A stretch of 63,738 nucleotides of DNA, filler included, from Reclinomonas americana ATCC 50394 (GCA_048213135.1; 20 parts of 20 records of this genome joined end to end with filler, not necessarily neighbours in it), one strand, 5' to 3'. Shown: positions 38,553-62,466, counted from the whole stretch's first letter. Notes: generated by a model not told the origin, from the letters alone. Program-made: numbers and translations.

Positions 38553-39656
38553 CTACAGGTGCAGTCGAGGATCAGCGGCACACCGATGGACCACAACCGC
38601 AGCCTCCTCCACCACAAAGCAGCGCAGTGCCATCTCTGGCAAGCAGCGCGAGTCCACGTCGTCGTCGTCGCCCTCTCCATGCTGCATCTCCCGCACTGCA
38701 AGCATCGCGAAGCGTGCTGCATGGAGCTCTTGCTTGGCGAGCCCCAGTAACGTGGACCACACTCGTATACTGTTATCCATACTTCCACTGACAATGTGCT
38801 GCCCATCGTGAGAGACGGCGACTGAAGACACAGTTTTGGCGTGCCCCCTCAACTGCAGTACCTCCCGTCCATCCTCGACGGACCAGACTCGCACTGTTCC
38901 GTCATCGCCGCCACTCACAATGTGACGGCAGTCGCCAGTGACGGCGACAGAGAACACATCTTGAACGTGCCCCTCCAATCGCAGCACCTCTTCGCCACTC
39001 GCCAGTGACCACACTCGTACTGTCGCATCCCGACTCCCGCTCACAACATGCTGGCCATCGGGAGTGACAGCGACAGAGTATACATCTGCTGTGTGTCCCT
39101 TCATCCGGCGCACCTCCTCGCCACTCTCCACTAACCACAACAGTACAGTCCTGTCTTCTGTGCCACATGTACAAACAACGTGCTTGCCGTCGGGGGTGAC
39201 AGCAACAGCGGACACCTCACCAGTGTCTCCCTCAAATTCTTGCACTTCCTCTCCACTCGCAAGCGACCACACTCGCACGGTCGTTTCATCACCACCGCTC
39301 ACAACAAGCTGACCATCGGGAGAGACAGCAACACATTCCACCGCATCATAGTGTCCTTCTGGACCCAACTGTCGCACTTCCTCACCGCTCGCCCACGACC
39401 ACACACGCATTGTGCCGTCAGCGCCACCACTCACAATGTGCTTGCCGTCGGGAGTGACGGCAACAGACAATACTCTATCAGTGTGCCCCTCCAACCGTCG
39501 CACCTCCGCTCCACTCGCCAGTGACCACACTCGCACTGTCGCGTCCCAGCTGCCACTCACAACGTGCTGATCGTCGGGAGAGATGGCGACACACATCACC
39601 AGCTCATCGTGCACTACCGGCAGACACTTGCTGATAAAGAGAGGGGGTGTAGACAT
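38553..39656 (-). CDS. Intronless 7xWD40 family member (dispersed copy A)
   Basis: Seven GH..V.SVAVTPDGQHVVSG..D.TVRVWSLASGEEVRRLE-type repeats plus the family C-terminal tail ..DSRCLPEMALRCFVVEEAAVVVHRC..LHL*. Confidence 0.92.
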   Translation of the reverse strand: MSTPPLFISKCLPVVHDELVMCVAISPDDQHVVSGSWDATVRVWSLASGAEVRRLEGHTDRVLSVAVTPDGKHIVSGGADGTMRVWSWASGEEVRQLGPEGHYDAVECVAVSPDGQLVVSGGDETTVRVWSLASGEEVQEFEGDTGEVSAVAVTPDGKHVVCTCGTEDRTVLLWLVESGEEVRRMKGHTADVYSVAVTPDGQHVVSGSRDATVRVWSLASGEEVLRLEGHVQDVFSVAVTGDCRHIVSGGDDGTVRVWSVEDGREVLQLRGHAKTVSSVAVSHDGQHIVSGSMDNSIRVWSTLLGLAKQELHAARFAMLAVREMQHGEGDDDDVDSRCLPEMALRCFVVEEAAVVVHRCAADPRLHL

Positions 39657-40146
39657 GAGAGGCGACTCTGAGAGAGAGAGAGTGAGAGAAAGAGGTGAAT
39701 CAGCTCGCCGCAGCAGCAACAGTAGTAAATAAGATGACAGTGGGACAACACCCCCCGCTTCCACTCCTCAATCAAGCAGCCACGCACAACATCAACAACA
39801 GCTCGTGAAAGGGCTGCAGCATGAAATCCACATGCACATGCATCCATGCATTTATATATATTGAGATATCGAAGCATCCCTTCAAATTCCGCCAGCACGT
39901 GCACTCGCGACTCGCTCTCCCTTCGCCGTCTCTCCACAGTCTCATGCGCTTACAGAACAGCAACACAGCAACGTCAGCAAACAAGGAAAGATTATGCGAC
40001 GGGAAACTCCGCTTGAGACATGCAATGCTTGTGGACAGACAACCCACTGAAAGCGTTTCTGTCGAGTCCCTGATTCTTTCACCGTCACTCAAGCGCGCAC
40101 AGACCACCCCCCTCCTTACGCCCTCCTCTTTCACCATCATCACCAA

Positions 40147-40865
40147 ATGGCCTCCACTGTCACCGGCTCACGCGTGATCATTGTCGGCGCCACCGGCAAC
40201 ATTGGCCGCGGCGTGGCCCTGGCCTTCCTCAAGCACGGTGCCGCGCAAGTGGCACTCGTTGGCCGCGATCAGGCGCGCCTCGACTCGCTTGTCAGTGAGT
40301 ACCTGAGCGAGTACGACTCGGACGGCCGTATTGTTCGCATTGCCGGCGACGTGTCCTCTCCGGAGGGCGCCGAGGCTGTCGCGCGCTCGGCGTATGAGCA
40401 GCTGGGAGGCTCGGTGCAACATGTCGCGGTCTCTGCTGGTCCGTGGGTCCCCGTGCGCACGCTCACCAGTGCCACCCCGCAGCAAGTGCGCTCGTGATCA
40501 CTTGTGTGAGGTATTCGAATCCTCCTCTCACTGCCCTTTGTTCTTCCGCGTGCAGTTTGCTGGCGCTCTCGAGTCCAACGTGCTCTCGCACTTTTACGCG
40601 TACAAGTTGCGCCTTAAGCTGGCAGAGACTCGTTGCGAGAACGAGGCAACTAACGGAGATCTTTCTGCAGGGCGTTCCATGCGGAGATTCTCAAGGCCGG
40701 CACCGAGACCTCGTATACGTTCATGAATGGCACTGGTAAGTTCTCCGTGAAAGCAGAGGAAGAGGAGGGTGAGGTGCTCAGTCTTGCGGTGTGCAGCATT
40801 CCGTGGACTGCCGGGCACATCGGTGACAGGTATTTGCACGACGGCGGTGCAGGCCATGGCCAAGT
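40147..40865 (+). CDS. Atypical short-chain dehydrogenase/reductase; 3' end in gap
   Basis: Rossmann motif VIIVGATGNIGRG, GDVS, VAVSAG, then spliced FAGALESNVLSHFYAYK/AFH..SYTFMNG; no YxxxK seen at the usual position. Confidence 0.8.
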
Positions 40866-41235
40866 GCATTCAGTTTCGTGCTCCGAGAGTGGGCAGTGTA
40901 CGGGCGAGTTGCTTCTCCTCCTTGCTTCTCCGCCTTTTCCGCACCTCCTTCGCTTCCTCCTTTGCCTTTTCCTCCTCCTCCTCCTCCTCCTCCTCCTTCT
41001 TCCTCTTTCTTCTTCTTCTTCTTCTTCTTCTTCTTCTTCCTCCTCTCTCNNNNNNNNNNNNNNNNNNNNNNNNNNNNNNNNNNNNNNNNNNNNTTAATTA
41101 ATTAANNNNNNNNNNNNNNNNNNNNNNNNNNNNNNNNNNNNNNNNNNNNACACAACGAGACTTGTCTGTGTCATCTACTGCTACAACAACATTTCCAGAA
41201 AATATGTACAAAGGGCCTGTACAGCGCCTCTACTG

Positions 41236-42461
41236 CTATATGAGCGGCACTTCCACCTCAACGTCCTCGGTATTGGCGAAAACCAACCTCACCAGCAGCG
41301 TCGCAGGCCACGGCATTTGGTGCAACTGAATATTGACATTTGTCTCGAACAGCTTATCCGCGTTGGGGAGCTGTGCATGCACATTGAGGGCCACAGTACA
41401 ACAATCTCGCGCATCACAGCAAGCAACTCACCGGCGCGATGTAAAACGTTGACGACTTCACCACCGTGGGCGGCACAAACTCCACCGACGTGCACCGGTC
41501 GGGCAGCATGGCCAGCAACGTGATGTAATGCGGGGGGCCCCGGAAAATGTTGAACGGCGGCAACACCCTGCTCCAGCTGGAGCGCGTAATGGGCCCGTCG
41601 CAGGTCGTTGGCGTGGAGATGCGACTAACGCAGTAGACGGGCACGTCGCCGAGCACATCGTGAACCTGCCCTGCGCGTGAGCAACGGGGTGGCGACAGAG
41701 AGGGGTGGGGGTGCGTCAGCATTCCACAGCACCTGAAACACAATCAAGGCACACCCGCCGTTGGTCTGGTTGTTGGCGTGCCACTCCACATCCACACGTC
41801 CATCGGGCTGTCCGCTGACGGTGAATTCGACCTGCCCGGTTTGCTGCAGCCGGCGACTGGGATGCTGGCCCGTGGCAAAGTGCGAAATGGTGAGGGGGCG
41901 CAGGTCGGGAGGGCGACAGACGCGCAGCGAAACGGCGCGGTGAGTGGCCCCCGATCCACCGTTTCGATATTCAACCTTGTGCAGTTGATTTCCATCATGC
42001 GGGCGAGCATTCTTCCACTTGTCTCCACATTGATACTGCACAGTCAAGCCGTCGGCGGCGACACAAACTTGAAAGGCGACTTGCGAGTCGTCGGCCTCCC
42101 GTTTCAGCTTGCGTCGCTTCTGCTGCTTCTCCATTCGCTCGGCCGGCGTCGACGACAGTGATGGAGATGGCGGCGGTGGAGGTGGCGGCGGCGGCGGTGG
42201 TGGTGGTGGTGGTGGTGGCGATGGTGGCGTGGAACTGGCCACACCAGTGATTGCCGTCGGCACTCCCGTATCCGACGCCCATGCAACCGCCGGAATCTGC
42301 ATGGCCGTGGCCTGTGGAACCATGCGCTGTCCGAGGTATGCTGCCGGTGGCAGTGGCGGTGGTGGTGGAGGAGGTCGCCATTGCAGCGGAGGAGGATCCG
42401 GGTACGACTCGCCGCAGTTATACGCCTGCTCACTCCTGCTCAACATGTTCATCAGCGTCAT
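41236..42461 (-). CDS. Uncharacterised protein: Pro-rich N-terminus, NLS-like KRRKLKR, beta-rich globular C-terminal region (3 exons)
   Basis: ORFs 41625-42497 and 41414-41743 plus a terminal exon LPNADKLFET..VEVPLI* can be joined by GT-AG introns; start codon uncertain. Confidence 0.55.
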
Positions 42462-43948
42462 GACAAACAGAGAGAGAGAGAGAGAGAAAATAGCCACTCA
42501 TGCTCATCAGTGCACCTGCTGCTGCTGCTGTTGCTGCTTGCTCTGTACACATCACTCCTCGCGATCGACTCCAGCAGGTAGTTGGGTACGGGTTCTGGAT
42601 GGCGAGCGGCGGCAATCGGAAACGCCGGACAGTGGGTTTTATCGCTATGAATGCACATGAGGCACTCGAGGCACGGGTTGCACTTGAGCGGAGGCGACGA
42701 AAGGGCACTGTGAGATACGAGCGCGCGCGAGATTCCATTGATGAGACACACACCACACCTGCACATGGTCCGCGTCGACATCCATTGATGATGATCTTGT
42801 CGTGGTCAGCGAATGCTCGTCCTCACTGTCACTGTCAGTGAAGGTGTGAGTCTCAACACACACACACAAGCGTTTCATGCACAAATCGCAAGGTGAACTT
42901 ACTGTTCCTCATGATCACTGTCGAGCATGTGCTTATCGCCGTGACCAAACCCACTTGCCATTGCACGGAGAGGAGGGAGAGACACAGACACAAACACAGA
43001 AAGAGAGAGAGACAGAGATACGCGTCTTCTCACATGCAATGATTCGCCGGAAACCAGTTCTGCGTTTGTCCGGTCATGCTCGACTGCTGCATCGTCGAGC
43101 GGTGCATCAGTTCCTGCATGCTTCGCTTCCTCCTCTGCACGATCAGCGCCCTCTTGATCCCTCCACGACCTACTTATTCCGGAACACAAAGTTCGTTGGT
43201 AAGTTTTTTCACTCCATCCATTAACATTTTTTCAAGCGATTACAAAGAAGTTGCTACACAAACACACACACAAACACACACAAACACACACAACCGTCTA
43301 GCTATCGTCGGCGGGCTTGAACTCGTCCAGCCAACACTCAATAACATTGCTCGGACCCGAAACTGACACCACAAAAGTCTTCTTGTCGGCACCCGGTCGC
43401 AACACCAACATGCAGTGACGCACTGCCGTGTCGGTCTGCGCCATGGCACCCGTCTCGCACGCACGTTGGCACAGTACGCGAAGCGCTGTTGTTCAAATCA
43501 GCACCTTGTATCGCAACAACACACTCTCGTCGCCAACCTCCACTCACCATCCACATCCACCTTCAGTCCAAAACCCTCCCGATGCAACTCATCATGCAAC
43601 CTCCTCAACAACCAGTGATTCACCGCCTCGCCAGACTGCTCGCGATACTTCATCGTCCACGCATGACGAAGATCTGTGTGCGTGCACGCGCCAACGGCAA
43701 GTGAGTCGTTCCTCGTGACAATCCCACTGCCCGAAGAAAATTACAAACGACGCACCACTCACCAGGCTGCAGCGTTGGAGACAGGCCGCCGTCAGGCGAC
43801 CGTCTTGTGGTGGAACCCGGACGGTTCGGTGCCAGCGACATCAGCGATNNNNNNNNNNNNNNNNNNNNNNNNNNNNNNNNNNNNNNNNNNNNTTAATTAA
43901 TTAANNNNNNNNNNNNNNNNNNNNNNNNNNNNNNNNNNNNNNNNNNNN

Positions 43949-48388: not shown

Positions 48389-48536
48389 TGCGACACAGAG
48401 GGGTGTGAGGAAAGCATGGCTAATGTCGTACAGTGGNNNNNNNNNNNNNNNNNNNNNNNNNNNNNNNNNNNNNNNNNNNNTTAATTAATTAANNNNNNNN
48501 NNNNNNNNNNNNNNNNNNNNNNNNNNNNNNNNNNNN

Positions 48537-48794
48537 TTTGTCTGCATCACACCCGACCGTCAGCACCTGCTGAGCGGCAGTCGGGACCAAACCGTACGTG
48601 TGTGGTCCACCCCGTTTGGTCTCGCTCGCCAGGAGCTCGAGTGTGCGCGCTCGGCCATGCGCGCTGTGCAAGAGATGCAGCAAGAAGAAGACGAGGAGGA
48701 GAGACGCTGTCTGGTGGAGATTGTGTTGCGGTGCTTCTTGGTCGAAGAGGCCGAGGTCATTGTTCATCGTTGTTTCTCGAATGGTGGTTTTTGA
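48537..48794 (+). CDS. WD40 family member, 3' fragment (copy B)
   Basis: Last blade ITPDRQHLLSGSRDQTVRVWST plus tail ..RRCLVEIVLRCFLVEEAEVIVHRCFSNGGF*. Confidence 0.88.
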   Translation, partial: FVCITPDRQHLLSGSRDQTVRVWSTPFGLARQELECARSAMRAVQEMQQEEDEEERRCLVEIVLRCFLVEEAEVIVHRCFSNGGF

Positions 48795-48971: not shown

Positions 48972-50054
48972 ATGTCTGCCACACCACCTTCTCTGCCATG
49001 TAAATGCCTGCACGGTCGCTCCAATCCCGCTATGGCTGTCGCTGTCACGCCCAACTCCCAGTTCATTGTCACCGGCAGCCTGGATAGATCAGTGCATGTT
49101 TGGTCACTGGCGAGTGGGGAAGAAGTGCGTCGGTTGAAGGAGCACTCCGCCCTTGTGTGGTCTGTCGCCATCTCCGCCGATGGTCAGTATGTCGTGGGTG
49201 CTGGTGGTGACACCGACGAAACGATCCGAGTGTGGTCACTGGCGAGTGGCGAGGAGGTGTGTCAGCTGAAGGTACACGTTGCGCCGGTAATGTCAGTTGC
49301 TTTCACCGTTGACGGCAAGCACGTTGTAAGCGGTGGTGGAGACAAGACTGTGCGAGTGTCATCGCTGGCAGGTGGACATGAAGTACGGCGGCTGGAGGGG
49401 CACGCCGACCGGTTGATGGCTGTCACTGTCACTCCCGATGGTCAGCACATCGTGAGCGGGGGCGTGGACACATCAGTGCGGGTGTGGTCGCTGGCGAGTG
49501 GCGAGGAGGTGCGACGTTTTGATGGGCACGGTGGAACTGTGTATTCTGTCCGTGTCACTCCCGGTGGTGATTGCATTGTCAGCGGGAGTAAGGACGGAAC
49601 AGTGCGAGTGTGGTCTCTGACGAGTGGGAAGGAGGTGCGACGGTTGGAGGGGCACATTGGCGCAGTGTACTCTATCGCTGTCTCCCCCCATGGTCTCCAT
49701 GTGGTGAGTGGAGGCTACGATCAGATCGTGCGTGTGTGGTTGCTGGCAAGTGGCGAGGAGGTTTGGCGATTGGTGGGGCATTCAAGCTTGGTGTATTCAG
49801 TGGCCATCACTCCCGACCTTCAGCACATTATGAGTACCAGCAATGACAGAACCATTCGTGTGTGGTCCACCCCGGTTGGTCTCGCTCGCCAGGAACTCGA
49901 GTGTGCGCGCTCGGCCATGCTTGTTGTGCAGGAGATGCAGCTTGAAGAAGACGAGGAGGAGAGACGCTGTCTGGTGGAGATTGTGTTGCGGTGCTTCTTG
50001 GTCGAAGAGGCCGAGGTCATTGTTCATCGTTGTTTCTCGAATGGTGGTTGTTGA
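48972..50054 (+). CDS. Intronless 7xWD40 family member (copy C)
   Basis: ATG in the conserved CAACCGCATG context; seven blades and the family tail. Confidence 0.92.
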   Translation: MSATPPSLPCKCLHGRSNPAMAVAVTPNSQFIVTGSLDRSVHVWSLASGEEVRRLKEHSALVWSVAISADGQYVVGAGGDTDETIRVWSLASGEEVCQLKVHVAPVMSVAFTVDGKHVVSGGGDKTVRVSSLAGGHEVRRLEGHADRLMAVTVTPDGQHIVSGGVDTSVRVWSLASGEEVRRFDGHGGTVYSVRVTPGGDCIVSGSKDGTVRVWSLTSGKEVRRLEGHIGAVYSIAVSPHGLHVVSGGYDQIVRVWLLASGEEVWRLVGHSSLVYSVAITPDLQHIMSTSNDRTIRVWSTPVGLARQELECARSAMLVVQEMQLEEDEEERRCLVEIVLRCFLVEEAEVIVHRCFSNGGC

Positions 50055-50226
50055 CTGTGATGGTCTTTTTCTTTTGCTCCTTGTCTCTTGCATGTTGTAG
50101 CTGGTACTGTTGGTGCGTACTTGTAACTCCCTGCATATTGATAACTACGAAGTGAAATGTCGAGGTGTACAAAGTGCGTCCTCCCTGCACACACGATCAC
50201 ACACACCTTCGCCCGCACACAACCGC

Positions 50227-51306
50227 ATGTCCGCCACGCCACCTCCTTCTCTCCCGTCCAAGTGCCTGCTGGGTCACTCCAGCATCGTGTGGTCTGTCAC
50301 TGCGACACCTGACGCACGGCACATTGTGAGCGGAGGTGCTGACAAGACCGTGCGGGTGTGGTCACTGGTGACTGGAGAGGAAGTGCGTCGGTTGGAGGGA
50401 CACACTAGTTCTGTGTGGTCTGTTGCCGTCTCTCCCGACGGTCAGTTCATTGTTAGTGCGAGTGGTGACACCATGATCAAGGTGTGGTCACTGGCGAGTG
50501 GCAGGGAGGTGCAACAGATGAAGGGACACACTGCGTCGGTAATGTCAGTTGCTTTCACCGTCGACGGCAAGCACGTTGTGAGTGGCAGTAATGACAAGTC
50601 AGTACGAGTGTGGTCGGTGGAGGGTGGGGAAGAGGTGCGACGGATGGAGGGACACGCCGGCTGGGTGTCGTGTGTCACTGTCACCCCCGATGGACAGCAC
50701 ATCATAAGTGGGTGTATGGACGGCACCGTGCGAATGTGGTCACTTGCAAATGGCGAGGAGGTGCGACGTTTATATGGGCACGTTGGTCAAGGGTACTGTG
50801 TTCGCGTCACTCCCGATGGTGAGTGTTTTGTCAGTGGGGATACGGATGGAACAGTGCGAGTGTGGTCTCTGACGAGTGGGAAGGAGGTGCGACGGTTGGA
50901 GGGGCACATTGGCGCAGTGTACTCTGTCGCCATCACTCCCGATGGTCTCCATGTGGTGAGTGGAGGCTACGATCAGATCGTGCGCATGTGGTCGCTGGCG
51001 AGTGGCGAGGAGGTCCGACGATTGGTGGGGCACTCGATGACAGCGCATTCTGTGGCTGTCACTCCCGACCTTCAGCACGTTGTGAGCAGCGGTGGTGACA
51101 GAACCATCCGCGTGTGGTCCACCTCGTTTGCTCTCGCTCGCCAGGAACTCGAGTGTGCGCACTCGGCCATGCGTGCTGTGCAAGAGATGCAGCTTGGAGA
51201 AGACGAGGAGGAGAGACGGTGTCTGGTGGAGATGGCGCTGCGGTGCTTCTTGGTCGAAGAGGCCGAAGTCATTGTTCATCGTTGTTTCTCCAATGGTGGT
51301 TTTTGA
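50227..51306 (+). CDS. Intronless 7xWD40 family member (copy D)
   Basis: As copy C; tandem unit ~1.25 kb. Confidence 0.92.
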   Translation: MSATPPPSLPSKCLLGHSSIVWSVTATPDARHIVSGGADKTVRVWSLVTGEEVRRLEGHTSSVWSVAVSPDGQFIVSASGDTMIKVWSLASGREVQQMKGHTASVMSVAFTVDGKHVVSGSNDKSVRVWSVEGGEEVRRMEGHAGWVSCVTVTPDGQHIISGCMDGTVRMWSLANGEEVRRLYGHVGQGYCVRVTPDGECFVSGDTDGTVRVWSLTSGKEVRRLEGHIGAVYSVAITPDGLHVVSGGYDQIVRMWSLASGEEVRRLVGHSMTAHSVAVTPDLQHVVSSGGDRTIRVWSTSFALARQELECAHSAMRAVQEMQLGEDEEERRCLVEMALRCFLVEEAEVIVHRCFSNGGF

Positions 51307-51469
51307 CTGTGTTGGCCTTTTTCTGTTGCCTCTCGGTTCTTGTATGTTGTAGCTGGTACTCTTTGGTGCGTACAAGGAGCGCTCTGCGTTTTGATAACAA
51401 CGAATAGAAGTGTCGGAAGCTGTGCGTCCTCTCTCTCACGATCACACACAACTTCGCGCACACAACCGC

Positions 51470-52540
51470 ATGTCTGCCACACCGCCCTCTCTGCCATGCA
51501 AATGCCTGCTGGGTCACTCCAAGCCCGTCATGTCAGTCGCTATCACTCCCAACTCTCAACACATTGTCAGCGGCGGTGTGGATCGATCTGTGCGTGTTTG
51601 GTCACTGGCGACTGGCGAGGAGGTGCGACGCTTTGAGAGACACACGGACACAGTGTGGTCTGTCGCCATCTCTCTCGACGGTCAGTACATTGCGAGTGGA
51701 AGCGGCTTTCTTGACACGACTGTGCGAGTGTGGCGCATAGTGGACGGAGAGCAAGTGCAAGATTTGAGGAGACACTCTTCGACGTCCGTTGCGTTCACCG
51801 TCGACGGCAAGCACGTTGTGAGTGGCAGTAATGACAAGCATGTGCGAGTGTGGTCGCTGGCGAGTTGTGAGATAGTGCGAAGGTTGGAGGGACACACAGA
51901 TGCGGTGAGGGCTGTCACTGTCACTCCCGATGGTCAGCACGTCGTGAGTGGGAGCGCGGACTCGTCAGTGCGGGTGTGGTCGCTGGCGAGTGGTGAGGAG
52001 GTGCGACGAATGGAGGGCGGCGGTGGAACAGTGCTCTCCGTTCGTGTCACTCCCGGTGGTGAGTGTGTTGTCAGCGGGAGTAAGGACGGGATCGTGCGAG
52101 TGTGGTCTCTCGTGAGCGGAGAGGAGGTGCGACGGTTCGAGGGGCACACTGGCACAGTGTACTCTGCCGCTCTCTCCCCCGACGGTCTCCACATACTGAG
52201 TGGGGGTGAGGACGCGACTGTGCGGGTGTGGTCGCTGACGAGTGGCGAGGAGGTTTGGCGGTTGGTGGGACATTCAAGCTTGGTGTATTCAGTGGCCATC
52301 GCTCCGGACCAACAGCACATTGTGAGCAGCAGCAAGGATGAAACCATTCGTGTGTGGACCACTCCATTTGGTCTTGCTCGCCAGGAGCTCGAGTGTGCGC
52401 GCTCGGTCTTGTGTGCTGTGCAGGAGATGCAGCGCGAGGAAGGCGAGGAGCGTTGCTTGGTGGAAATGGCACTGCGCTGTTTCTTGGTCGAGGAGGCGGA
52501 GGTGATTGTTCATCGTTGTTTCTCCCGTGGCGGCTTCTGA
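51470..52540 (+). CDS. Intronless 7xWD40 family member (copy E)
   Basis: As copy C. Confidence 0.92.
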   Translation: MSATPPSLPCKCLLGHSKPVMSVAITPNSQHIVSGGVDRSVRVWSLATGEEVRRFERHTDTVWSVAISLDGQYIASGSGFLDTTVRVWRIVDGEQVQDLRRHSSTSVAFTVDGKHVVSGSNDKHVRVWSLASCEIVRRLEGHTDAVRAVTVTPDGQHVVSGSADSSVRVWSLASGEEVRRMEGGGGTVLSVRVTPGGECVVSGSKDGIVRVWSLVSGEEVRRFEGHTGTVYSAALSPDGLHILSGGEDATVRVWSLTSGEEVWRLVGHSSLVYSVAIAPDQQHIVSSSKDETIRVWTTPFGLARQELECARSVLCAVQEMQREEGEERCLVEMALRCFLVEEAEVIVHRCFSRGGF

Positions 52541-55099: not shown

Positions 55100-55167
55100 C
55101 GGTGAGCCCAATTGAACCTACAGGCACTTCGATGATCCGCACTTCAATTGGACCCACGCACGCACTC
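55100..55167. promoter_or_regulatory. Very compact bidirectional promoter (COQ5 / PDRG1-like)
   Basis: 68 nt between divergent ATGs; contains the inverted pair CCAATTGAA (55108-55116) / TTCAATTGG (55143-55151). Confidence 0.55.
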
Positions 55168-55638
55168 ATGGAGGCAGAACTGTTGCGTTTTTTCACTATG
55201 CGCGTCTCTCTCTCTCACTCCTTAGCTTACGTCCTCCTTGCAAGATTCGACGCCATGGTCCGCATCGAGCTGCTCACTGAGCAAGTGCACACCTTGCGAC
55301 GCGAGATGGACGTGTACCGCGCGCGCTTGACCTCTGCGCACCACTCGCTCTCCTCCATGACAAGCACAAGTGGAGGCGCATTGTTCACTGCATTGGGTGT
55401 GCACGCGGGATACGCGCGATTGCCCGTGTCGGTGGTGCGTGGAGCATGTGAGCGGGACCGCGAGGAGCTGGAGGGGCGGTTGAACGAGGCGCAGAGGAGT
55501 GTGGGCGAGAAGGAGACCGAGTTGCGCATGTTGGAGCAGTGGGTGGTCGATCAGACTGCGGACTCGCACGCGCCACAGTTCCGCTGGTTGGCGGAGCTGT
55601 CGCCGGGGGATGTGCGCGCCTTGTTGTGGCAGAGATGA
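55168..55638 (+). CDS. PDRG1-like beta-prefoldin subunit
   Basis: Coil-hairpin-coil: RIELLTEQV..LFTALG..YARLP..CERDREELEGRLNE..K..L, tail LAELSPGDVRAL; resembles PDRG1 as recalled. Possible short intron from 55182. Confidence 0.6.
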   Translation: MEAELLRFFTMRVSLSHSLAYVLLARFDAMVRIELLTEQVHTLRREMDVYRARLTSAHHSLSSMTSTSGGALFTALGVHAGYARLPVSVVRGACERDREELEGRLNEAQRSVGEKETELRMLEQWVVDQTADSHAPQFRWLAELSPGDVRALLWQR

Positions 55639-55710
55639 AGTACATGTATAGGCAAGAACGAAGTCCGAGACTCTCTGTCTGTCTGTCTGTCTGTCTGTCT
55701 GTGCGCGCTG

Positions 55711-56978
55711 TCACTCGTCGGTGGCGGGAGGAGGCGAGGGTGCTGCTGGTGGTGATGCAGCGGCGGCGGCGACGACGACGGAGGGTGACTCGCGAGAGGC
55801 TGTGGAGGGCGAGCGCACTGGTGACTCGGGCTCCACGGAGAGCGACTGGAAGGCGTCGACCACAGCGTCGCCGGAGAGAGTGCGCTGCAGGGGTGCAGGC
55901 GGGGCCAGTGGAGCGGCGGCTGCCACAACAGGAACAGAGGCAGCAGCAGGTGAAGGCGGTACTGCGCTTGCCGAGGACGCTGCTGGTGATACCAGCGGTG
56001 GCAGCGACGATGCGCCTGCGGTGGCCACGGCGGGTGCGGGCGGCAGAGGAGTGGCCATGGCCGGCAACCGCGGTGCCTTGTCCATGTGTACCTCGGGCAG
56101 GCGCTCGTGTACGAGGTGGTGAATGGCCTCGGTCGACTCCTCAAACGAGTGGTTCGAGAAACCGCACAACCGAGCGTACATGCCCTCTGCGTGGCGGCGG
56201 CGGTGTGTGAGAAGCGGACGAGGCACAAAAAAACACAAAGAGCACACACACACCTGGTTCCGATGCATCAATGAGAATGTTGAAGAGTTCCTCCTTGGAG
56301 GTGGCCGCCGCAATCTGCTTCCTCAGATGCTTCTCGTGCAGCGGCAGCAGTCGCTGACCCAACGAACGCAAACACAGCTGCATGAATGTGTCGTCATCGC
56401 GCGCCTCATCCGAGGTCACGAATCGCCTCCACATGGCCAGCAACTGGTCGTAGTCCTCGCCGTATCGATCCAGGTCCCTGGAAGGGAAGAAGAACGTACG
56501 GAATTTGAATGCGGGAGCGGGAGAGCAGGGAAAGGAGAGAGAGCTGTCAATCGCAACTGTTGGAACAGAGCCGACAGTCGCACCAGCAGCCGCTCGGACA
56601 GCTCCACTCGCCATNNNNNNNNNNNNNNNNNNNNNNNNNNNNNNNNNNNNNNNNNNNNTTAATTAATTAANNNNNNNNNNNNNNNNNNNNNNNNNNNNNN
56701 NNNNNNNNNNNNNNTCACACACACACACACACACACACACTCCCCTCTCACTCTCGCTCCCTTGGACATATGACTCACCCCTGTCGCCGACGCAGCGCAG
56801 GCCCGCCAATCCCATGCTTCTGCGCACGCAGACACACACAAAGAGTCGCTTGAGTCTCACATAAGAGCTTCTCTTTATCTTTATCGCTCTCAACTTGCAC
56901 CACAAAAGGTCCGGTTTCGTAGAGGTTGGTCCACCACCGCTTGCCCTCAGTGGTCGATAGCCAGAACCAGTACACCAT
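55711..56978 (-). CDS. Uncharacterised multi-exon protein with Pro/Ala/Ser-rich tail (linkage of the 56780-56978 exons across the gap is inferred)
   Basis: Spliceable coding blocks DLDRYGEDYDQLLAMW.., GMYARLCGFSNHSFEESTEAIHHLVHERLPEV.., stop at 55711; putative start MVYWFWLSTTEGKRWW at 56978. Confidence 0.5.
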
Positions 56979-57208
56979 TGTCGAGCAACACGTGTGAGGA
57001 AAACGCGATCGAAAACGCAGCTCTCACAGTGATTGTCCACGAAGTCGACGTTTTCCTATCTCTTCCGTTTTTTCTTTCTGTGAACGATGATAAAGCATAT
57101 GGCAGTCTCGCTTACTCTCTTTTGTCAACGCATAATCCCGCAGCAAAAGTCAGAAAAGCGCGACGTCTGTCCTCCTTGTTAGAACGCACTCCGTCTCGTC
57201 ACTCAAGC

Positions 57209-58300
57209 ATGTCCACTCTCTTCCTCTGCAAGCACGTGCTCAAGGGCCACACTGGCTTCGTGTTCTCTGTCGCCGTCACTCCCGATGGCCAGCACGTGTT
57301 GAGCATGTGCGCTGGCACGTTGCGTGTGTGGTCACTCGCGAGTGGAGCAGAGGTGTTTGTGCGACAGTTAGAGGGACACGCGGGTGATGTGTACTCTGTC
57401 GCTGTGACTGGAGATGGTCAGCACATTGTCAGCGGTGGTGATGATGGAACAGTGCGAGTGTGGTCACTGGCGAGTGGTGAGGAGGTGCGATGCGTGGAAG
57501 GGCATGATGGCGCCGTGTTCTCGGTCGCTGTCTCCTCCGATGGTCAGTTCATTGTCAGTGGAGGCAATGATCAGACAGTGCGAGTGTGGTCGCTGGCGAG
57601 TGGCGAGCAAGTGCATTGCATGGAGGGACACACCTCGTATGTGAGCTCTGTGGCCGTCACCCCAGACGGCCAGCACGTCATCAGTGGGAGTCGCAGCAGA
57701 GCGGCGCTTGTGTGGTCGCTGGTGAGTGGACAGGAGGTGCGACGTCTCGAGGCGCACGAAGGAGGCAGTACGCAGTGTGTCGCCGTCACTCGAGACAGTC
57801 AGCACGTAGTCTGTGGGAGTTGGGATGGCACGGTCCTTGTGTGGTCCCTGGCAAGTGGAGAGCAAGTGCGACGGTTTGAGGGACACTCGGCAGGAGTAAT
57901 GTCGGTGGCCGTCGCGCCCGATGGTCGACACGTAGTCAGTGGGAGTTGGGATAAGACGGTGCGAGTGTGGTCGCTGGCGAGTGGCGACATGGTGCAACGA
58001 TTGGAGGGATACGGTGACGCAGTTAACGTCGTTGCTGTCACTTCCGATGGGCAGTGTGTTGTGAGTGAAAGTGATGACAGGACTGTGCGGGTGTGGTCCA
58101 CTCCTTGTGGTTTCGCTCGATGTGAGCTTGATGCGGCTCGCATGGCATTGGTGGCCGTCCAGGAGATGCAGCGTAGGGAGGGTGAGGACAAGGAGGTAGA
58201 TTCACGATGCCTTCCAGAGATGGTGCTGCGGTGCTTCATCGTGGAGGAGGCTGAGGTTATGGTGTTCCGATGCCTTGCTGATTCTCAGCTGCACCTGTGA
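57209..58300 (+). CDS. Intronless 7xWD40 family member (copy F)
   Basis: MSTLFLCKHVLKGH..; seven blades; tail DSRCLPEMVLRCFIVEEAEVMVFRCLADSQLHL*. Confidence 0.92.
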   Translation: MSTLFLCKHVLKGHTGFVFSVAVTPDGQHVLSMCAGTLRVWSLASGAEVFVRQLEGHAGDVYSVAVTGDGQHIVSGGDDGTVRVWSLASGEEVRCVEGHDGAVFSVAVSSDGQFIVSGGNDQTVRVWSLASGEQVHCMEGHTSYVSSVAVTPDGQHVISGSRSRAALVWSLVSGQEVRRLEAHEGGSTQCVAVTRDSQHVVCGSWDGTVLVWSLASGEQVRRFEGHSAGVMSVAVAPDGRHVVSGSWDKTVRVWSLASGDMVQRLEGYGDAVNVVAVTSDGQCVVSESDDRTVRVWSTPCGFARCELDAARMALVAVQEMQRREGEDKEVDSRCLPEMVLRCFIVEEAEVMVFRCLADSQLHL

Positions 58301-58830
58301 GCCTGCCTGCGACAAGAGCGGTGCAGGAGGTGTCGCCTGTTGTGGTGCACTTCGTCTTGCTGCTGTTTTTCGCCTTCCTCTTTCTTTTTTTGCTTCTTCA
58401 ACAATGAACACGTCAGCAGCTTCTGGAAGGCAAGCACTTGTGCATAAGCACTCAATCTGCTTCTCCCCCCCCNNNNNNNNNNNNNNNNNNNNNNNNNNNN
58501 NNNNNNNNNNNNNNNNTTAATTAATTAANNNNNNNNNNNNNNNNNNNNNNNNNNNNNNNNNNNNNNNNNNNNGTAACGTACGACGACGACGTCGTTACGG
58601 TACGGTACGGAACGGACGAACGTACGTTCGTCGTACGTAACGTAACAACGTACTAACTACTCACTCTCCCCTCCCCCCCCCCCCCCCCCCCCCTACCTCT
58701 GCGACTCCCTTGCACCATGGCTTGTACGCTTCAACGTCGAGAAAAATCCCGCATTCACAGGACACAAAACCCCCACCGACCGCATCTCCCACACCCCGCT
58801 CTCACGCACACACAGTCACCTTTCAACACC

Positions 58831-59925
58831 ATGTCCAGCGCCGCTCATCCTCTCTTCCTCTGCAAGCACGTGCTTGTGGGTCACACTGCAACGGTGAGAT
58901 CTTTGGCCATCACTCCCGACGGACAGCACGTTGTGAGTGTGGGTGATGACAAGACAGTTCGAGTGTGGTCACTGGCAAGTGGAGCAGAGGTGCGACGGTT
59001 GGAGGGACACGCTGAAAGAGTGTGGTCCGTCGCTGTCACTCCCAATGGTCGGCACGTTGTGAGCGGTAGTGCTGACAAGACGGTGCGTGTGTGGTCGCTG
59101 GCGAGTGGCGAAGAAGTGCGACGGTTGAAGGGACACACTAACTGGGTGTACTCCGTCGCCGTCACTCCCGACAGTCAGTTTGTTGTGAGTGGAGGTGCCG
59201 ATAATACGGTGCGAGTGTGGTCGCTGGCGAGTGGTGAGGAGGTGCGACGACTGGAGGGAAACACGAGTGCAGCATATACTGTCGCCGTCTCTCCAGACTG
59301 TCAGTTTGTTGTGAGTGGGGGTGCAGACAACACTGTGCGGGTGTGGTCTTTGGCAAGCGGTGAGCAAGTGCGCCGGCTGGAGGGACACGCTGAGTCGGTT
59401 TATAGTGTCACCGTCACTCCCGAGCACGTCGTGAGCGGAGGTTGTGAGGGGAGAGTGCGAGTGTGGTCACTCGCAAGTGGCGAAATGGTGCGACGGTTGG
59501 AGGGACACTCTGGGCCAGTAACGTCTGTCGCGGTCACTCCTGACGGCCGGCATGTAATTAGTGGGAGTTGGGATAAGACGGTGCGAGTGTGGTCCATGGC
59601 GAGTGGAGAAGAGGTGCAACGATTCGAGGGACACATTGGGTGGGTGAACGCCGTCGCCGTCTCTCCCGACGGGCAACACGTCGTACATGGCAGTGACGAC
59701 GGGACTGCGCGGGTGTGGTCGACGCCATGCGGTTTTGCTCGATGTGAGCTCGACACGACTCACGTAGCACTGCGGCATGTCCAGGAGATGCAACGCAGGG
59801 AGGGTGGGGAGGAGGAAGAGGTGGACTCGCGGTGCCTGCCGGAGATGGTGTTGCGGTGCTTCATCGTGGAGGAGGCTGAGGTTGTGGTCTTCCGGTGCCT
59901 CACGGATCCCCAGCTGCACATGTGA
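58831..59925 (+). CDS. Intronless 7xWD40 family member (copy G)
   Basis: MSSAAHPLFLCKHVLVGH..; seven blades; tail ..LTDPQLHM*. Confidence 0.92.
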   Translation: MSSAAHPLFLCKHVLVGHTATVRSLAITPDGQHVVSVGDDKTVRVWSLASGAEVRRLEGHAERVWSVAVTPNGRHVVSGSADKTVRVWSLASGEEVRRLKGHTNWVYSVAVTPDSQFVVSGGADNTVRVWSLASGEEVRRLEGNTSAAYTVAVSPDCQFVVSGGADNTVRVWSLASGEQVRRLEGHAESVYSVTVTPEHVVSGGCEGRVRVWSLASGEMVRRLEGHSGPVTSVAVTPDGRHVISGSWDKTVRVWSMASGEEVQRFEGHIGWVNAVAVSPDGQHVVHGSDDGTARVWSTPCGFARCELDTTHVALRHVQEMQRREGGEEEEVDSRCLPEMVLRCFIVEEAEVVVFRCLTDPQLHM

Positions 59926-60221
59926 GCTTGTCTGCGACAAGCGGTACAGGAGGTGTCGCCTTTCGTGGTGTACTTTGTCTTGCTGCTATATTCTTTCTCT
60001 CTCTGTCGCACTTTTGCTTCTTCAACAATAAACGCACTTCAAGAGACGTCGACAGCTTCTGGGAGGCCAGCGATTCTGAAGCTCACGTTCTGCATCTCCC
60101 CGCCAGCTACGACTTCTCGAGCCAACGAGTCCACAACGTCGATAAATCCCGCAATCGCAGGACCTGTCGGTACTCACACCCCGCTCTCACGCACAGGCAA
60201 TCACCTTTCAGCTCCATGTCC

Positions 60222-61126
60222 ATGTCCAGCGCCACTCGCCCTCTCCTGCTCCCCCAGCACGTGCTTGAGGGTCACACTGCGCCGGTTATGTCTGTTGCCA
60301 TCACTCCGGACGGACAGCACGTCATCAGTGGCAGTCATGACATGACAGTGCGAGTGTGGTCTCTCACGAGTGGAGCACATGTGCGACGGCTGGAGGGACA
60401 CACTGGAAGAGTGTGGTCTGTTGCCGTCACTCCCGATGGTCAGTACATTGTGAGCGGCAGTGATGACAACACGATGCGTGTGTGGTCATTGGTGAATGGA
60501 GATGAGGTGCGACAGTTGAAGGGACACACAAGCGAGGTACACTCTGTCGCTGTNNNNNNNNNNNNNNNNNNNNNNNNNNNNNNNNNNNNNNNNNNNNTTA
60601 ATTAATTAANNNNNNNNNNNNNNNNNNNNNNNNNNNNNNNNNNNNNNNNNNNNTGCTAGTGTGGTCGCTGGCGAGTGGAGAGATGGTGCGCATTTTCGAG
60701 GGAGAGGCACAGGCTGTGCAGCCTATCACCATCACTCCCGATGGCCAGTACCTTGTCAGTGGTGGCTACGACAGGACAGTACGCGTGTGGTCGCTGGCAA
60801 GTGGCGAAGTGTTGCAACGGTTGGAGAGGCACACTGACTGGGTGTGGTCAGTCGCCGTCGCTCCCGACGGTCAGCAGGTGGTGAGTGGGAGTGAGGATAT
60901 GACGGTGCGGGTGTGGTCCACTCCATGCGGCTTCGGTCGATGTGAGCTTGACGCTGCGCGCATGGCACTACAGGTTGTTCAGGAGATGCAGCACAGGGAG
61001 GGCGAGGAGGAGGAAGAGGAGGTGGATTCACGGTGCTTGGCAGAGATGGTGCTGCGGTGTTTCATCGTGGAGGAGGCTGAGGTTGTGGTCTTCCGGTGCC
61101 TCACAGATCCCCAGCTGCACATGTGA
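60222..61126 (+). CDS. WD40 family member split by a gap (copy H; the halves could belong to two different copies)
   Basis: 5' half 60222-60553 and 3' half 60654-61126 are both open and carry the family N-terminus and tail. Confidence 0.85.
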
Positions 61127-61365
61127 GCATGGATGCGCCTTGCCTACATGCGTCGTTCACGATCTCGATCTTTTGTCTTTCTCTCTCTTTGCGTCAATGA
61201 ATGAACAGTTGTAAGACGTTGACACCAAGAAGAGCTCATTCTGGTCCTCCCCGTCAGCTGCGACTCCCTTGAACCAAGGCTTGTGCGCTTCAACGTCGAG
61301 AAAAATCCCGCAATTAGAGGACTAACTTTTATTTCCGTCTACGCACACGCAATCACCAATCATCC

Positions 61366-62466
61366 ATGTCCAGCGCCACCCATCCTCTCCTCCTCTGCAA
61401 GCACGTGCTGGAAGGGCACTCCGGCTTCGTGTGGTCTGTCGCCATCACTCCCAATGGCCAACACATCGTCAGTGGCAGTGATGACAAGACAGTGCGCGTG
61501 TGGTCGTCGATGACTGGTGAGGGAGTGCGACGGTTGGAGGGACACACTGAAAGAGTGTGGTCTGTCGCCGTCACTCCCGATGGCCAGCACGTCGTGAGTG
61601 GGGGCGGTGATCGAACCGTGCGAGTGTGGTCACTGGCAAGCGGAGAGGAAGTGCGACAGTTGACGGGACACGCGGGTGGGGTTGTTACGGTTGCCGTCAC
61701 TCCCGATGGTCAGTACATCATAAGCGGGAGCAGAGACAAGACAGCGCGAGTGTGGTCGCTGGCGAGCGGAGAAGTGGTGCGATTGCTGGAGGGTCACACT
61801 AATGATGTACGCTCAGTCGCTGTTACTCCTGATGGCGTGCATGTTTTGAGCAGCAGTTTGGACATGACTGTGCGCTTATGGTCGCTGGCAAGTGGCGAAG
61901 AGGTGCGACGGTTCGAAGTCGAAGGACACGGGCGGCGTGTGTGTTCCGTCGCTGTCTCGCAAGACAGTCAATTTGTTGTTTGTGGGAGCGGAGTGTGGTC
62001 ATTGGCGAGCGGTGAAAAAGTGCGACAGCTGGAGGGACGCACTCAGGCGGCAACAACAGTTGCCGTCACACCCGATGATCGGCACGTAGTCAGTGGGAGT
62101 TGGGACGAGACGGTGCGGGTGTGGTCCTTGGCGAGCGGAGAAGAAGTGGGGCGACTGGAGGGACACGCTGGGTGGGTGTTGTCTGTCGCTGTTTCTCGCG
62201 ATGGCCAGCACATCGCCAGTGGGAGCGGAGACACGACTGTGCTTGTGTGGTCGACGCCGTGTGGTCTTGCTCGATGTGAGCTCGACGAAGCGCGCTCGGC
62301 ACTGCACGTTGTCCAGGAGATGCAGCGGCGCAGGGAGGGCGAGGAGGAGGAGGAAGAGGAGGTGGATTCACGGTGCCTGCCGGAGATGGTGCTGCGCTGC
62401 TTCGTCGTGGAGGAGGCTGAGGTTGTGGTGTTCCGGTGCCTGGCTGACGCCCAGCTGCACTTGTGA
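61366..62466 (+). CDS. Intronless 7xWD40 family member (copy I)
   Basis: MSSATHPLLLCKHVLEGH..; seven blades (blade 5 shortened); tail ..LADAQLHL*. Confidence 0.92.
   Translation: MSSATHPLLLCKHVLEGHSGFVWSVAITPNGQHIVSGSDDKTVRVWSSMTGEGVRRLEGHTERVWSVAVTPDGQHVVSGGGDRTVRVWSLASGEEVRQLTGHAGGVVTVAVTPDGQYIISGSRDKTARVWSLASGEVVRLLEGHTNDVRSVAVTPDGVHVLSSSLDMTVRLWSLASGEEVRRFEVEGHGRRVCSVAVSQDSQFVVCGSGVWSLASGEKVRQLEGRTQAATTVAVTPDDRHVVSGSWDETVRVWSLASGEEVGRLEGHAGWVLSVAVSRDGQHIASGSGDTTVLVWSTPCGLARCELDEARSALHVVQEMQRRREGEEEEEEEVDSRCLPEMVLRCFVVEEAEVVVFRCLADAQLHL

What the first reader, a model, noticed from the sequence alone, without database searches (positions are those of the whole stretch)
38553..62466. Expanded intronless 7xWD40 family with fixed scaffold and hypervariable binding face: candidate diversifying receptor repertoire
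Seen: at least 9 copies (one dispersed at 38.5-39.7 kb, tandem arrays at 48.5-52.5 and 57.2-62.5 kb). All are intronless although nearly every other gene here has many introns, and no in-frame stops are visible. The blades share a near-constant frame (SVAVTPDGQHVVSG-x-x-D-x-TVRVWSLASGEEVRRLEGH). The residues just after GH (TDR, YDA, VQD, SAL, AGW, VGQ, SMT, TSY, TNW, IGW, TDW, GRR...), the residue after the following V (L/E/Y/F/W/M/R/N/T) and those around SG-x-x-D-x (W, A, R, M, Y, K, N, H, E...) change from blade to blade. Known: these loops form the top binding face of WD40 propellers. Highly self-similar WD repeats with variation concentrated there are the signature of fungal HNWD/HET-E non-self receptors. 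Inference: this is a standalone (no NACHT) protist recognition repertoire, possibly immune- or prey/pathogen-directed.
Basis: partly seen in the sequence, partly recalled or inferred. Interest (0 to 1): 0.85.

Follow-up and report, generated by a model that had tools for sequence, protein, structure and literature searches.

The report
Tandem WD40 propeller family with tail
A protist scaffold carries nine single-exon copies of a small seven-bladed WD40 propeller protein whose binding-face residues differ between copies while the frame and a previously undescribed C-terminal helical tail stay constant; it is a real new gene family, but nothing yet shows that it is an immune-type receptor set.

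Summary
There are nine paralogues: seven whole ORFs, one split by a scaffold gap, and one 3' fragment at a contig edge. Each encodes a short N-terminal strand, 7 WD40 blades and a conserved tail of about 65 aa.

Across 53 blades, six positions of the 42-residue unit are hypervariable (2.6-3.7 bits; all others 1.8 bits or less). In an AlphaFold model (pLDDT 92.6) they lie in the D-A loop, the start of strand A and the B-C turn, which form the top face.

- Blades are about 64% identical in DNA, with no concerted evolution of the HET-E kind.
- dN/dS at the variable sites is 1.5-2.5 if the synonymous rate is shared with the frame. It falls to about 1.0-1.4 (not significant) with its own synonymous rate, and to 0.7-1.3 in a tree-free nearest-pair test.
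- The tandem copies are recombination mosaics, which undermines tree-based tests.
- The closest propellers are bacterial. A Gemmatales protein is 60% identical, shares 29 of 36 frame residues and varies at the same positions. This pattern is already described for repetitive WD40s.

What is new is the tail, a two-helix hairpin under strong purifying selection (dN/dS about 0.16). It has no Pfam or PDB match and only three database relatives, one of them a Reclinomonas americana EST.

My best reading is a modular adaptor family with a constant docking tail and a variable binding face.

The parts
38553..39656 (-). c1, the dispersed copy: 367-aa ORF with 7 WD40 blades and the C-terminal tail
48537..48794 (+). 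c0, a 3' fragment (end of blade 7, tail and stop) at a contig start; the rest is lost in the scaffold gap
48972..50054 (+). c2, 360-aa ORF, array A
50227..51306 (+). c3, 359-aa ORF, array A; this is the copy that was modelled
51470..52540 (+). c4, 356-aa ORF, array A
57209..58300 (+). c5, 363-aa ORF, array B
58831..59925 (+). c6, 364-aa ORF, array B
60216..60553 (+). c7, 5' part (N-terminus to blade 3), cut by the scaffold gap
60656..61126 (+). c7, 3' part (end of blade 5 to the stop)
61366..62466 (+). c8, 366-aa ORF, array B; blade 5 lacks 5 residues
62245..62463 (+). Example of the conserved C-terminal tail (in c8): a two-helix hairpin. The same module ends all nine copies.
50055..50226 (+). 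Example of a short (172-nt) spacer between tandem copies; spacers are conserved within an array, so the whole unit was duplicated

Best explanation
This is a lineage-restricted family of small, single-exon proteins with two modules. The first is a seven-bladed WD40 propeller of the repetitive type, whose closest relatives are bacterial. The second is a family-specific C-terminal alpha-helical hairpin.

The family grew by tandem duplication of the whole gene-plus-spacer unit. Neighbouring copies later exchanged segments.

I infer that it works as a modular adaptor set. The hairpin and the propeller frame are held constant, and the hairpin serves as a common docking or oligomerisation handle. 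The six top-face positions of each blade evolve at about the neutral rate or faster and are rich in Trp, Tyr and Met. Each paralogue therefore presents a different binding surface.

Shown: the architecture, the location of the variability, purifying selection on frame and tail, the mosaic exchange, and transcription of a relative in a jakobid. Inferred: that the tail binds a shared partner, that the top faces bind different ligands, and that the proteins are intracellular. The ligands are unknown.
For: Architecture:
- 7 of 7 proteins hit PF00400.
- The AlphaFold2 model of c3 has mean pLDDT 92.6, with 7 blades and helices at 300-322 and 328-355.
- The tail modelled alone has pLDDT 86, with helices at 4-32 and 39-66.

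Selection:
- Whole-gene dN/dS is 0.19-0.40 over 28 pairs; IQ-TREE GY omega is 0.36.
- All 36 frame positions have omega 0.02-0.47; the six variable positions have 0.87-2.29.
- Tail median omega is 0.16 over 36 pairs, with dS of 1.3 to over 4 between arrays. Its conservation is therefore not due to recent origin.

The tail defines the family:
- A tail profile searched against 1.84 billion representatives found only 3 proteins.
- P0122 and P0123 have propellers only 23-30% identical to the window copies but carry the same tail.

The binding face looks functional, not merely loose: at the four core sites Trp is 9.1%, Tyr 7.7% and Met 6.2%, against 3.1%, 1.9% and 1.6% expected from base composition.

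Growth and exchange:
- Spacers are conserved within arrays.
- The c2/c3/c4 informative sites fall into 136 runs against 201 +/- 8 in shuffles; 0 of 5000 shuffles were as low (sliding windows).

Expression of a relative: P0121 comes from an EST of Reclinomonas americana.
Against: - No partner of the tail and no ligand is known. The tail's fold search returns only generic alpha-hairpins (best E about 2).
- No RNA or protein evidence exists for these nine copies themselves.
- Omega near 1 at the variable sites is also what unconstrained loops would give.
- Several blades are irregular, so some copies may be decaying: c8 blade 5 lacks 5 residues, c5 blades 1 and 4 lack the Asp, and c4 blade 3 lacks 2 residues.
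- I had no model coordinates. The top-face placement rests on secondary-structure order and textbook WD40 topology, not on measured positions. I also cannot say whether the hairpin packs on the propeller.
Confidence: 0.55

Rival explanations
1. One reading: a NOD-less, diversifying non-self, immune or prey-recognition repertoire in which positive selection drives the top-face residues.
For: - The variable positions match the positively selected HNWD codons.
- With shared synonymous rates, omega at the four core sites is 1.5-2.5 with LRT 13.6-37.3.
- Position 16 (omega 2.29, 2dlnL 15.2) survives correction for 42 tests, and position 34 is borderline.
- The copies form tandem arrays with segmental exchange.
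- The sites are enriched in Trp and Tyr.
Against: - Omega is 1.0-1.4 and not significant once the variable class has its own synonymous rate.
- The tree-free ratios are 0.69 (0.33-1.00), 1.26 (0.79-2.02), 1.03 and 1.01.
- Recombination inflates tree-based tests.
- The duplicates are old (dS 0.43-1.46) and blades are only 64% identical. There is no fast repeat turnover as in HNWD.
- No signalling or death domain is present, and no defence genes lie nearby.
- No polymorphism or induction data exist.
Confidence: 0.15
2. The copies are ordinary duplicates whose surface loops simply tolerate change. The top faces drift neutrally and the copies are largely redundant, or share one conserved function carried by the frame and tail.
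For: - Omega at the variable sites is close to 1 in the assumption-light tests and 0.69 in the four youngest blade pairs.
- The same positions vary in every repetitive WD40.
- Some blades are irregular.
Against: - Trp, Tyr and Met are 3-4 fold enriched at the core sites.
- Some top-face residues are kept within sub-clades, for example Trp at position 18 of blade 2 in 6 of 8 copies and identical blade-6 sets in c2 and c3.
- All complete copies keep open frames and a whole-gene omega of 0.19-0.40 despite dS up to 1.46.
Confidence: 0.2
3. A hypothesis about origin, compatible with any of the functions above: the propeller module came from bacteria by horizontal transfer, which would explain the missing introns, and was then joined to the eukaryotic tail.
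For: - The best relatives of the propeller are bacterial: a Gemmatales MAG at 60% identity over residues 10-301 and Gimesia at 54%.
- The blade consensus matches at 29 of 36 frame positions and the same positions vary.
- Metagenome proteins carry the same frame.
- The nearest solved structures are prokaryotic or designed repetitive propellers.
- The genes are intronless among split neighbours.
- GC3 is 0.60-0.65 against 0.70-0.83 in neighbouring exons.
Against: - The tree is unresolved. The window copies and L001 form a polytomy (SH-aLRT 89 against the rest), which gives no direction of transfer.
- Consensus-like repeats can converge. The bacterial protein is as similar to c6 as c6's own paralogues are.
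- Tail-bearing relatives P0122 and P0123 have ordinary divergent propellers.
- 0 of 79 bacterial loci carry the tail.
Confidence: 0.3
4. An assembly or scaffolding artefact: one or a few genes appear as many copies.
For: - The window is 20 short contigs joined by fixed linkers.
- Two copies are cut by gaps.
Against: - The copies differ by dS 0.43-1.46.
- Three whole copies and a fragment lie on one uninterrupted contig (48537-54367), and c6-c7 and c7-c8 junctions also lie within contigs.
Confidence: 0.03

Closest known systems
Repetitive bacterial WD40 propellers: the Gemmatales MAG protein at locus L001, T. curvata PkwA (PDB 5yzv) and the Nostoc repetitive propeller (PDB 2ymu)
   Same: - Same blade frame: 29 of 36 consensus residues match L001.
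- Same variable positions: 14, 15, 16, 18 and 34.
- 60% identity over the whole propeller.
- Best structural matches: Foldseek E 1e-35 with TM 0.97 on the target; VIA Z 49.5, rmsd 1.0 over 288 residues.
   Different: - The bacterial proteins are long multidomain proteins. L001 is 1230 aa, with hydrophobic segments and four roughly 95-aa repeats before the propeller. Its N-terminal 935 aa gave no kinase hit in Pfam.
- Their blades are 0.82 identical internally, against 0.52-0.66 here.
- None of the 79 loci has the tail.
WD domains of fungal HNWD/HET-E/HET-D NLRs
   Same: The frame is constant, and the four most variable positions flank the conserved Val of strand A and the Asp of the B-C turn, on the top face.
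   Different: - There is no HET or NACHT domain.
- Repeats are 64% identical in DNA, not up to 100%.
- There is no concerted evolution within or between genes.
- Positive selection is not robustly shown.
- The number of blades is fixed at seven.
Substrate-receptor families of cullin-RING ligases (F-box/WD40, SOCS-box/WD40, DCAF). This is an analogy of logic only; their architecture is recalled, not tested here.
   Same: A variable propeller is joined to a small, constant helical module that would dock onto a shared partner.
   Different: - The tail gives no F-box or SOCS-box hit in Pfam at E up to 10.
- The tail is C-terminal and is predicted as two long helices, not a three-helix box.
- No partner is known.
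Gcp1-3, the WD40 proteins of jakobids and heteroloboseans linked to the mitochondrial T2SS (PMC8134430)
   Same: They are WD40 proteins reported from jakobids.
   Different: - The paper describes them as Pex7-like, many with a PTS1 signal (passages).
- None of four motifs of this family occurs in the paper's 6 supplementary text files.

Membership tests
WD40 repeat / seven-bladed beta-propeller | Repeated matches to the Pfam WD40 model above the gathering score | tested here: met
   7 of 7 proteins score 210-262 bits against a cut-off of 27, with 6-7 stretches each.
WD40 repeat / seven-bladed beta-propeller | Closed propeller fold of four-stranded blades | tested here: met
   The model has pLDDT 92.6 and 28 strands in 7 blades, with the N-terminal strand 12-15 closing blade 7. 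VIA Z is 45-49 against solved propellers.
WD40 repeat / seven-bladed beta-propeller | [quoted passage not shown] | tested here: met
   Over 53 blades: His13 87%, Ser31 89%, Asp35 92%, Trp41 98%. The tetrad definition comes from Hu et al. 2017 (passages).
Highly-Repetitive (HR) WD40 class of Hu et al. 2017 | Internal repeat identity above the 0.7 cut-off | tested here: not met
   Blades 2-7 are 0.52-0.66 identical in the 7 whole genes. This places them between the paper's 0.4 and 0.7 cut-offs.
Highly-Repetitive (HR) WD40 class of Hu et al. 2017 | Conserved repeats with diverse hot-spot sites | tested here: met
   Six positions have 2.6-3.7 bits; the rest have 1.8 bits or less.
Fungal NWD/HNWD NLRs | NACHT NTPase domain (with or without HET) N-terminal to the repeats | tested here: not met
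   The proteins are 356-367 aa and are fully accounted for by the N-terminal strand, 7 blades and tail. None of the 16 of 266 neighbouring ORFs with Pfam hits carries NACHT or NB-ARC.
Fungal NWD/HNWD NLRs | Near-identical repeats evolving in concert within and between genes | tested here: not met
   Mean blade DNA identity is 0.637 within a gene (153 pairs) and 0.641 between genes at a different blade index (1050 pairs). The maximum over all pairs is 0.903.
Fungal NWD/HNWD NLRs | Positive selection at the codons flanking the conserved Val and Asp | tested here: inconclusive
   Omega is 1.5-2.5 (LRT 13.6-37.3) with shared synonymous rates, and 1.0-1.4 (LRT 1.07 or less) with its own rate. The tree-free ratios are 0.69-1.26 with intervals spanning 1. 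Recombination is present.
F-box or SOCS-box substrate receptors | Match of the constant helical module to the Pfam F-box or SOCS_box models | tested here: not met
   Three tails were scanned at E up to 10. The only hit was DUF4761 at E 0.074, below its cut-off. The tail profile has no PDB sequence match at E up to 10.
F-box or SOCS-box substrate receptors | Binding to Skp1 or Elongin B/C | not tested
   No complex prediction could be run and no full Skp1 sequence was available.
Gcp1-3 (miT2SS-associated WD40) | Sequence membership in the published Gcp sets | tested here: not met
   0 of 4 family motifs were found in the 6 supplementary text files of PMC8134430. No alignment to Gcp sequences was made.

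The most novel reading that the evidence does not exclude
A jakobid-type protist has turned a bacterial sensor-type repetitive WD40 propeller into a stand-alone intracellular recognition repertoire. Tandem arrays with segmental exchange would shuffle and diversify the Trp/Tyr-rich top faces. A private C-terminal helical hairpin would couple every receptor to one shared downstream partner or oligomer. In effect this would be an NLR-like sensor set without a NOD domain, in one of the deepest-branching eukaryotic lineages.
Probability: 0.12. Interest if true: 0.8.

Novelty: new variant of a known kind. Interest (0 to 1): 0.42.

Why it matters
A constant frame with variable hot spots is already documented for repetitive WD40 domains in bacteria, fungi and protists. 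That part is not new.

Three things appear to be new:
- The architecture: a bacterial-type propeller with a strongly conserved, database-orphan C-terminal hairpin.
- Its expansion into tandem, intronless, recombining arrays inside an intron-rich protist genome.
- The near absence of relatives: three hits in 1.84 billion representative proteins.

If the tail proves to be a docking handle, the family would be a compact, tractable example of a modular adaptor repertoire arising in an understudied eukaryotic lineage. It might also be a clean case of a bacterial sensor module being reused.

I found no paper on such a family in four full-text searches.

Tried and rejected
- Whole-protein homology search: 6146 hits, swamped by generic bacterial and fungal WD40s at 29-59% identity. 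It gave no informative names.
- Word-indexed searches with the tail. One tail in the near length range found nothing. The 12-sequence tail alignment with 'longer' lengths found only P0122 and P0123 again.
- ESM Atlas with the tail: no usable hit.
- Pfam and PDB sequence searches with the tail: nothing.
- Foldseek with the tail model: no match at E 0.001 or better, only generic alpha-hairpins such as AcrA-type and designed hairpins at E about 2.
- VIA-align on the whole model covers only residues 2-301, so the tail's fold relations remain barely tested.
- No whole genome is held for this window, so a genome-wide copy census was impossible.
- Sequencing runs: none was listed for the 5.8-kb array contig, and no RNA holder was listed.
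- Earlier findings of this scan: nothing by place or by sequence.
Self-association of the hairpin is untested.
- Tree of propellers (quick method; 51 rows; only the 40 best of 77 usable bacterial segments were used): unresolved around the window copies. P0122 and P0123 sit on very long branches. I draw no direction of transfer from it.
- I considered an F-box reading of the 'LPEM.LRCF' stretch, given the Skp1 exon 5 kb from c1. I rejected it for lack of any profile match and because the predicted helix is continuous.
- I considered calling the N-terminus of the Gemmatales protein a kinase. Pfam gives no such hit, so I do not.
- NG86 dS at the variable codons alone is saturated (infinite in 6 of 28 pairs) and was not relied on.

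Full report
THE WINDOW. The window is not continuous sequence. It is 20 contigs of 1.0-6.8 kb joined by 19 identical 100-nt linkers (N44-TTAATTAATTAA-N44), and many of the breaks fall in microsatellites. No whole genome is held for it.

THE OBSERVATION. A tblastn of one copy against the window, together with the translations, gives nine paralogues.
- c1 lies at 38553-39656 on the minus strand.
- c0 (48537-48794) is a 3' fragment that starts at a contig edge.
- c2, c3 and c4 (48972-50054, 50227-51306, 51470-52540) lie head to tail on the same contig as c0.
- c5 (57209-58300) and c6 (58831-59925) follow.
- c7 (60216-60553 and 60656-61126) is split by a gap that hides roughly 100 codons.
- c8 lies at 61366-62466.

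The seven complete copies are single ORFs of 356-367 codons, and none of the nine has an internal stop in the sequence present. All 7 proteins scanned hit Pfam WD40 at E 1e-64 to 1e-80 with 6-7 repeats.

Neighbouring genes look split. Among 266 other ORFs of 90 aa or more, 16 had Pfam hits. Most of these cover only a slice of the domain model: GH47 172-242 of 455, UCH 1-36 of 254, glucan synthase 263-380 of 819, and Sec16 spread over three ORFs. I built no gene models, so 'many introns' is plausible rather than shown.

Spacers between tandem copies are only 164-290 nt where they are not broken by a gap. They are conserved within each array, so the duplicated unit was gene plus spacer.

BLADE ANATOMY. 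I cut the proteins into 53 blades and aligned them. Positions 14, 15, 16, 18, 34 and 36 have 2.58-3.65 bits of entropy and 9-15 residue types. The other 36 positions have 0.14-1.77 bits. The tetrad residues are nearly invariant: His13 87%, Ser31 89%, Asp35 92%, Trp41 98%.

An AlphaFold2 model of c3, built on 15 aligned sequences, has mean pLDDT 92.6 and pTM 0.89. It shows seven four-stranded blades, with the N-terminal strand (residues 12-15) closing the ring. By the model's strand order:
- positions 14-16 lie between strand D and strand A;
- position 18 is the second residue of strand A;
- positions 34 and 36 lie between strands B and C.

These connections form the top face of WD40 propellers, as stated in the passages of Paoletti et al. 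2007 that I read. I had no coordinates, so this is a mapping by topology, not by measured surface.

All nine copies end in a conserved tail of about 65 residues (72% mean column identity, 26 invariant columns).
- It is predicted as a two-helix hairpin, both in the whole model (helices 300-322 and 328-355, pLDDT 70-89) and alone (pLDDT 86).
- Its dN/dS is low, with a median of 0.16 over 36 pairs. Its synonymous divergence between arrays is 1.3 to over 4, so it is conserved by selection and not by youth.
- It has no Pfam match, no PDB sequence match, no Atlas look-alike and only generic alpha-hairpin fold matches (best E about 2).

A profile of the nine tails, scored against 1.84 billion representative proteins, found three proteins.
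- P0121 (E 8e-28) is a 116-aa product of an EST of the jakobid Reclinomonas americana. It is 59-66% identical to the window copies.
- P0122 and P0123 are unnamed proteins of 394 and 381 aa. Their propellers are only 23-30% identical to the window copies, but they end in the same tail.

Two word-indexed searches added nothing further. The tail therefore defines a small, essentially undescribed family. One relative is transcribed in a jakobid.

HOW THE FAMILY EVOLVES. Whole-gene dN/dS is 0.19-0.40 and dS is 0.43-1.46 over 28 pairs. A GY94 fit gives omega 0.36. The copies are therefore old and under purifying selection. They are neither pseudogenes nor recent duplicates.

Blades are about 64% identical in DNA whether they come from the same gene (0.637, 153 pairs) or from different genes (0.641, 1050 pairs). 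The same blade index in different genes is only slightly closer (0.671, 175 pairs). There is no sign of the concerted evolution that keeps HNWD repeats up to 100% identical.

The tandem copies do exchange segments. Along c2, c3 and c4 the closest pair switches repeatedly. Informative sites fall into 136 runs against 201 +/- 8 in shuffles, and 0 of 5000 shuffles were as low. A control triplet of distant copies shows far weaker clustering (246 against 276.5; 6 of 5000).

IS THE VARIABLE FACE UNDER POSITIVE SELECTION? I wrote a codon-likelihood model with site classes on the IQ-TREE topology.
- With synonymous branch lengths shared between classes, the four core positions (16, 18, 34, 36) have omega 1.5-2.5 under four model variants (LRT against 1: 13.6-37.3). 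Positions 14-15 have 1.2-1.6, and the frame has 0.24.
- A per-position profile is cleanly bimodal. All 36 frame positions have omega 0.02-0.47. The six variable ones have 0.87, 1.66, 2.29, 1.27, 1.90 and 1.06. Only position 16 clearly survives correction for 42 tests.
- When the variable class gets its own synonymous scale (estimated at 1.5-1.7 times the frame's), omega drops to 1.0-1.4 and the LRT to 1.07 or less. The extra scale parameter is itself not quite significant (2dlnL about 3.6).
- The frame's dS (0.7-1.4 between arrays) is lower than the tail's (1.3 to over 4). This suggests the frame's synonymous sites are homogenised and make a poor neutral yardstick.
- A tree-free test on disjoint nearest blade pairs avoids the recombination problem. 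It gives dN(variable)/dS of 0.69 (bootstrap 0.33-1.00; 4 pairs), 1.26 (0.79-2.02; 10 pairs), 1.03 (0.71-1.47; 15 pairs) and 1.01 (0.79-1.30; 25 pairs).

My reading is that these sites evolve at about the neutral rate, four to eight times faster than the frame, and that omega above 1 is not robustly shown.

One point argues against plain neutrality. The core sites are enriched in Trp (9.1%), Tyr (7.7%) and Met (6.2%), against 3.1%, 1.9% and 1.6% expected from base composition. Some top-face residues are also retained within sub-clades.

RELATIVES OF THE PROPELLER. The nearest solved structures are prokaryotic or designed repetitive propellers: T. curvata PkwA 5yzv, WRAP-T, and Nostoc 2ymu (Foldseek E 1e-35 to 1e-31; VIA Z 47-49.5). 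They rank ahead of WDR5 and LIS1.

A scan of one genome per prokaryotic species found 513 related stretches. The best is in a Gemmatales MAG, at 60% identity over residues 10-301, followed by Gimesia at 54%.

The Gemmatales protein is 1230 aa. Its seven blades are 0.82 identical to one another. They share 29 of 36 frame residues with the window consensus and vary at positions 14, 15, 16, 18 and 34. Metagenome proteins show the same frame. None of the 79 loci kept holds the tail.

Hu et al. 2017 already noted that highly repetitive WD40s of prokaryotes, protists and fungi are conserved except at the predicted interaction hot spots (passages). Planctomycete membrane kinases with WD40 sensor arrays are also described (passages), although Pfam gave no kinase hit for the L001 N-terminus.

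The window genes' internal identity is 0.52-0.66, below that paper's 0.7 cut-off.

A bacterial origin by transfer would also fit the missing introns and the lower GC3 (0.60-0.65 against 0.70-0.83 in neighbouring exons). However, a 51-row tree leaves the window copies and the Gemmatales protein in an unresolved polytomy. Consensus-like repeats can also converge. I give this origin about 0.3.

CONTEXT. Neighbouring genes are housekeeping types: GH47, Use1, UCH, CLU with TPR, a lysine methyltransferase, Skp1, Sec16, an SDR, glucan synthase and COQ5. No NACHT, NB-ARC, TIR or other defence-type domain turned up.

LITERATURE. Four searches found no description of such a family. The jakobid WD40 proteins Gcp1-3 are Pex7-like (passages), and four motifs of this family are absent from that paper's supplements.

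VERDICT. The most economical explanation is a lineage-restricted, tandemly amplified adaptor family. A constant propeller frame and a constant, selected helical hairpin are combined with paralogue-specific, aromatic-rich top faces. The hairpin is probably a shared docking or oligomerisation handle.

The immune-repertoire reading remains possible (about 0.15) but lacks its key supports: robust positive selection, rapid turnover, a signalling domain, and induction. The novelty lies in the tail-bearing architecture and its genomic behaviour, not in the hypervariable-face pattern.

Noticed in passing
window, 19 sites, e.g. 48437-48536, 60554-60653: Every assembly gap is the same 100-nt linker: 44 N, then TTAATTAATTAA (stops in all six frames), then 44 N. 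Many gaps are flanked on both sides by the same microsatellite. True gap sizes are unknown. At c7 at least about 300 nt are missing.
   Followed up: partly
window 38553-62466 (WD genes) versus neighbouring exons: The WD genes have GC3 of 0.60-0.65. Pfam-matched exon pieces of seven neighbouring genes have 0.70-0.83, although overall GC is similar. This could reflect weaker codon adaptation, low expression or foreign origin.
   Followed up: partly
window 33263-33700 (-): An exon encoding the Skp1 dimerisation domain (E 5e-15) lies about 5 kb from copy c1. I have no evidence of any link to the WD family, whose tail gives no F-box match.
   Followed up: partly
window 58573-58700 (+), upstream of c6: A contig starts with an ACGT-rich, partly palindromic low-complexity stretch (repeated GTAACGTACG-like units), followed by a long C run just before the c6 upstream region.
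   Followed up: no
window about 60120-60190 and 61270-61340 (+), and the equivalent site upstream of c6: Array B copies share a conserved block of about 35 nt, 60-90 nt upstream of the ATG. They also share a CAATAAA/CAATGAA-like motif about 100 nt after the stop. These may be promoter or polyadenylation signals for each unit.
   Followed up: no
window 48600-48794, 49860-50054, 51112-51306: The tails of c0, c2 and c3 differ by dS of only 0.09-0.18, whereas c4 differs from each of them by about 0.9. This points to a recent conversion or duplication limited to the 3' ends.
   Followed up: partly
window 41625-42497 (-): A long ORF with extended proline runs and no Pfam match. Several other long ORFs at 44.8-46.5 kb and 55.4-56.3 kb are low-complexity and overlap on both strands, so they are probably non-coding.
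   Followed up: no
locus L001 196-3888: The Gemmatales protein closest to the family has four tandem repeats of about 95 aa between its hydrophobic segments and the WD40 blades. Its first 435 aa have no Pfam match.
   Followed up: partly
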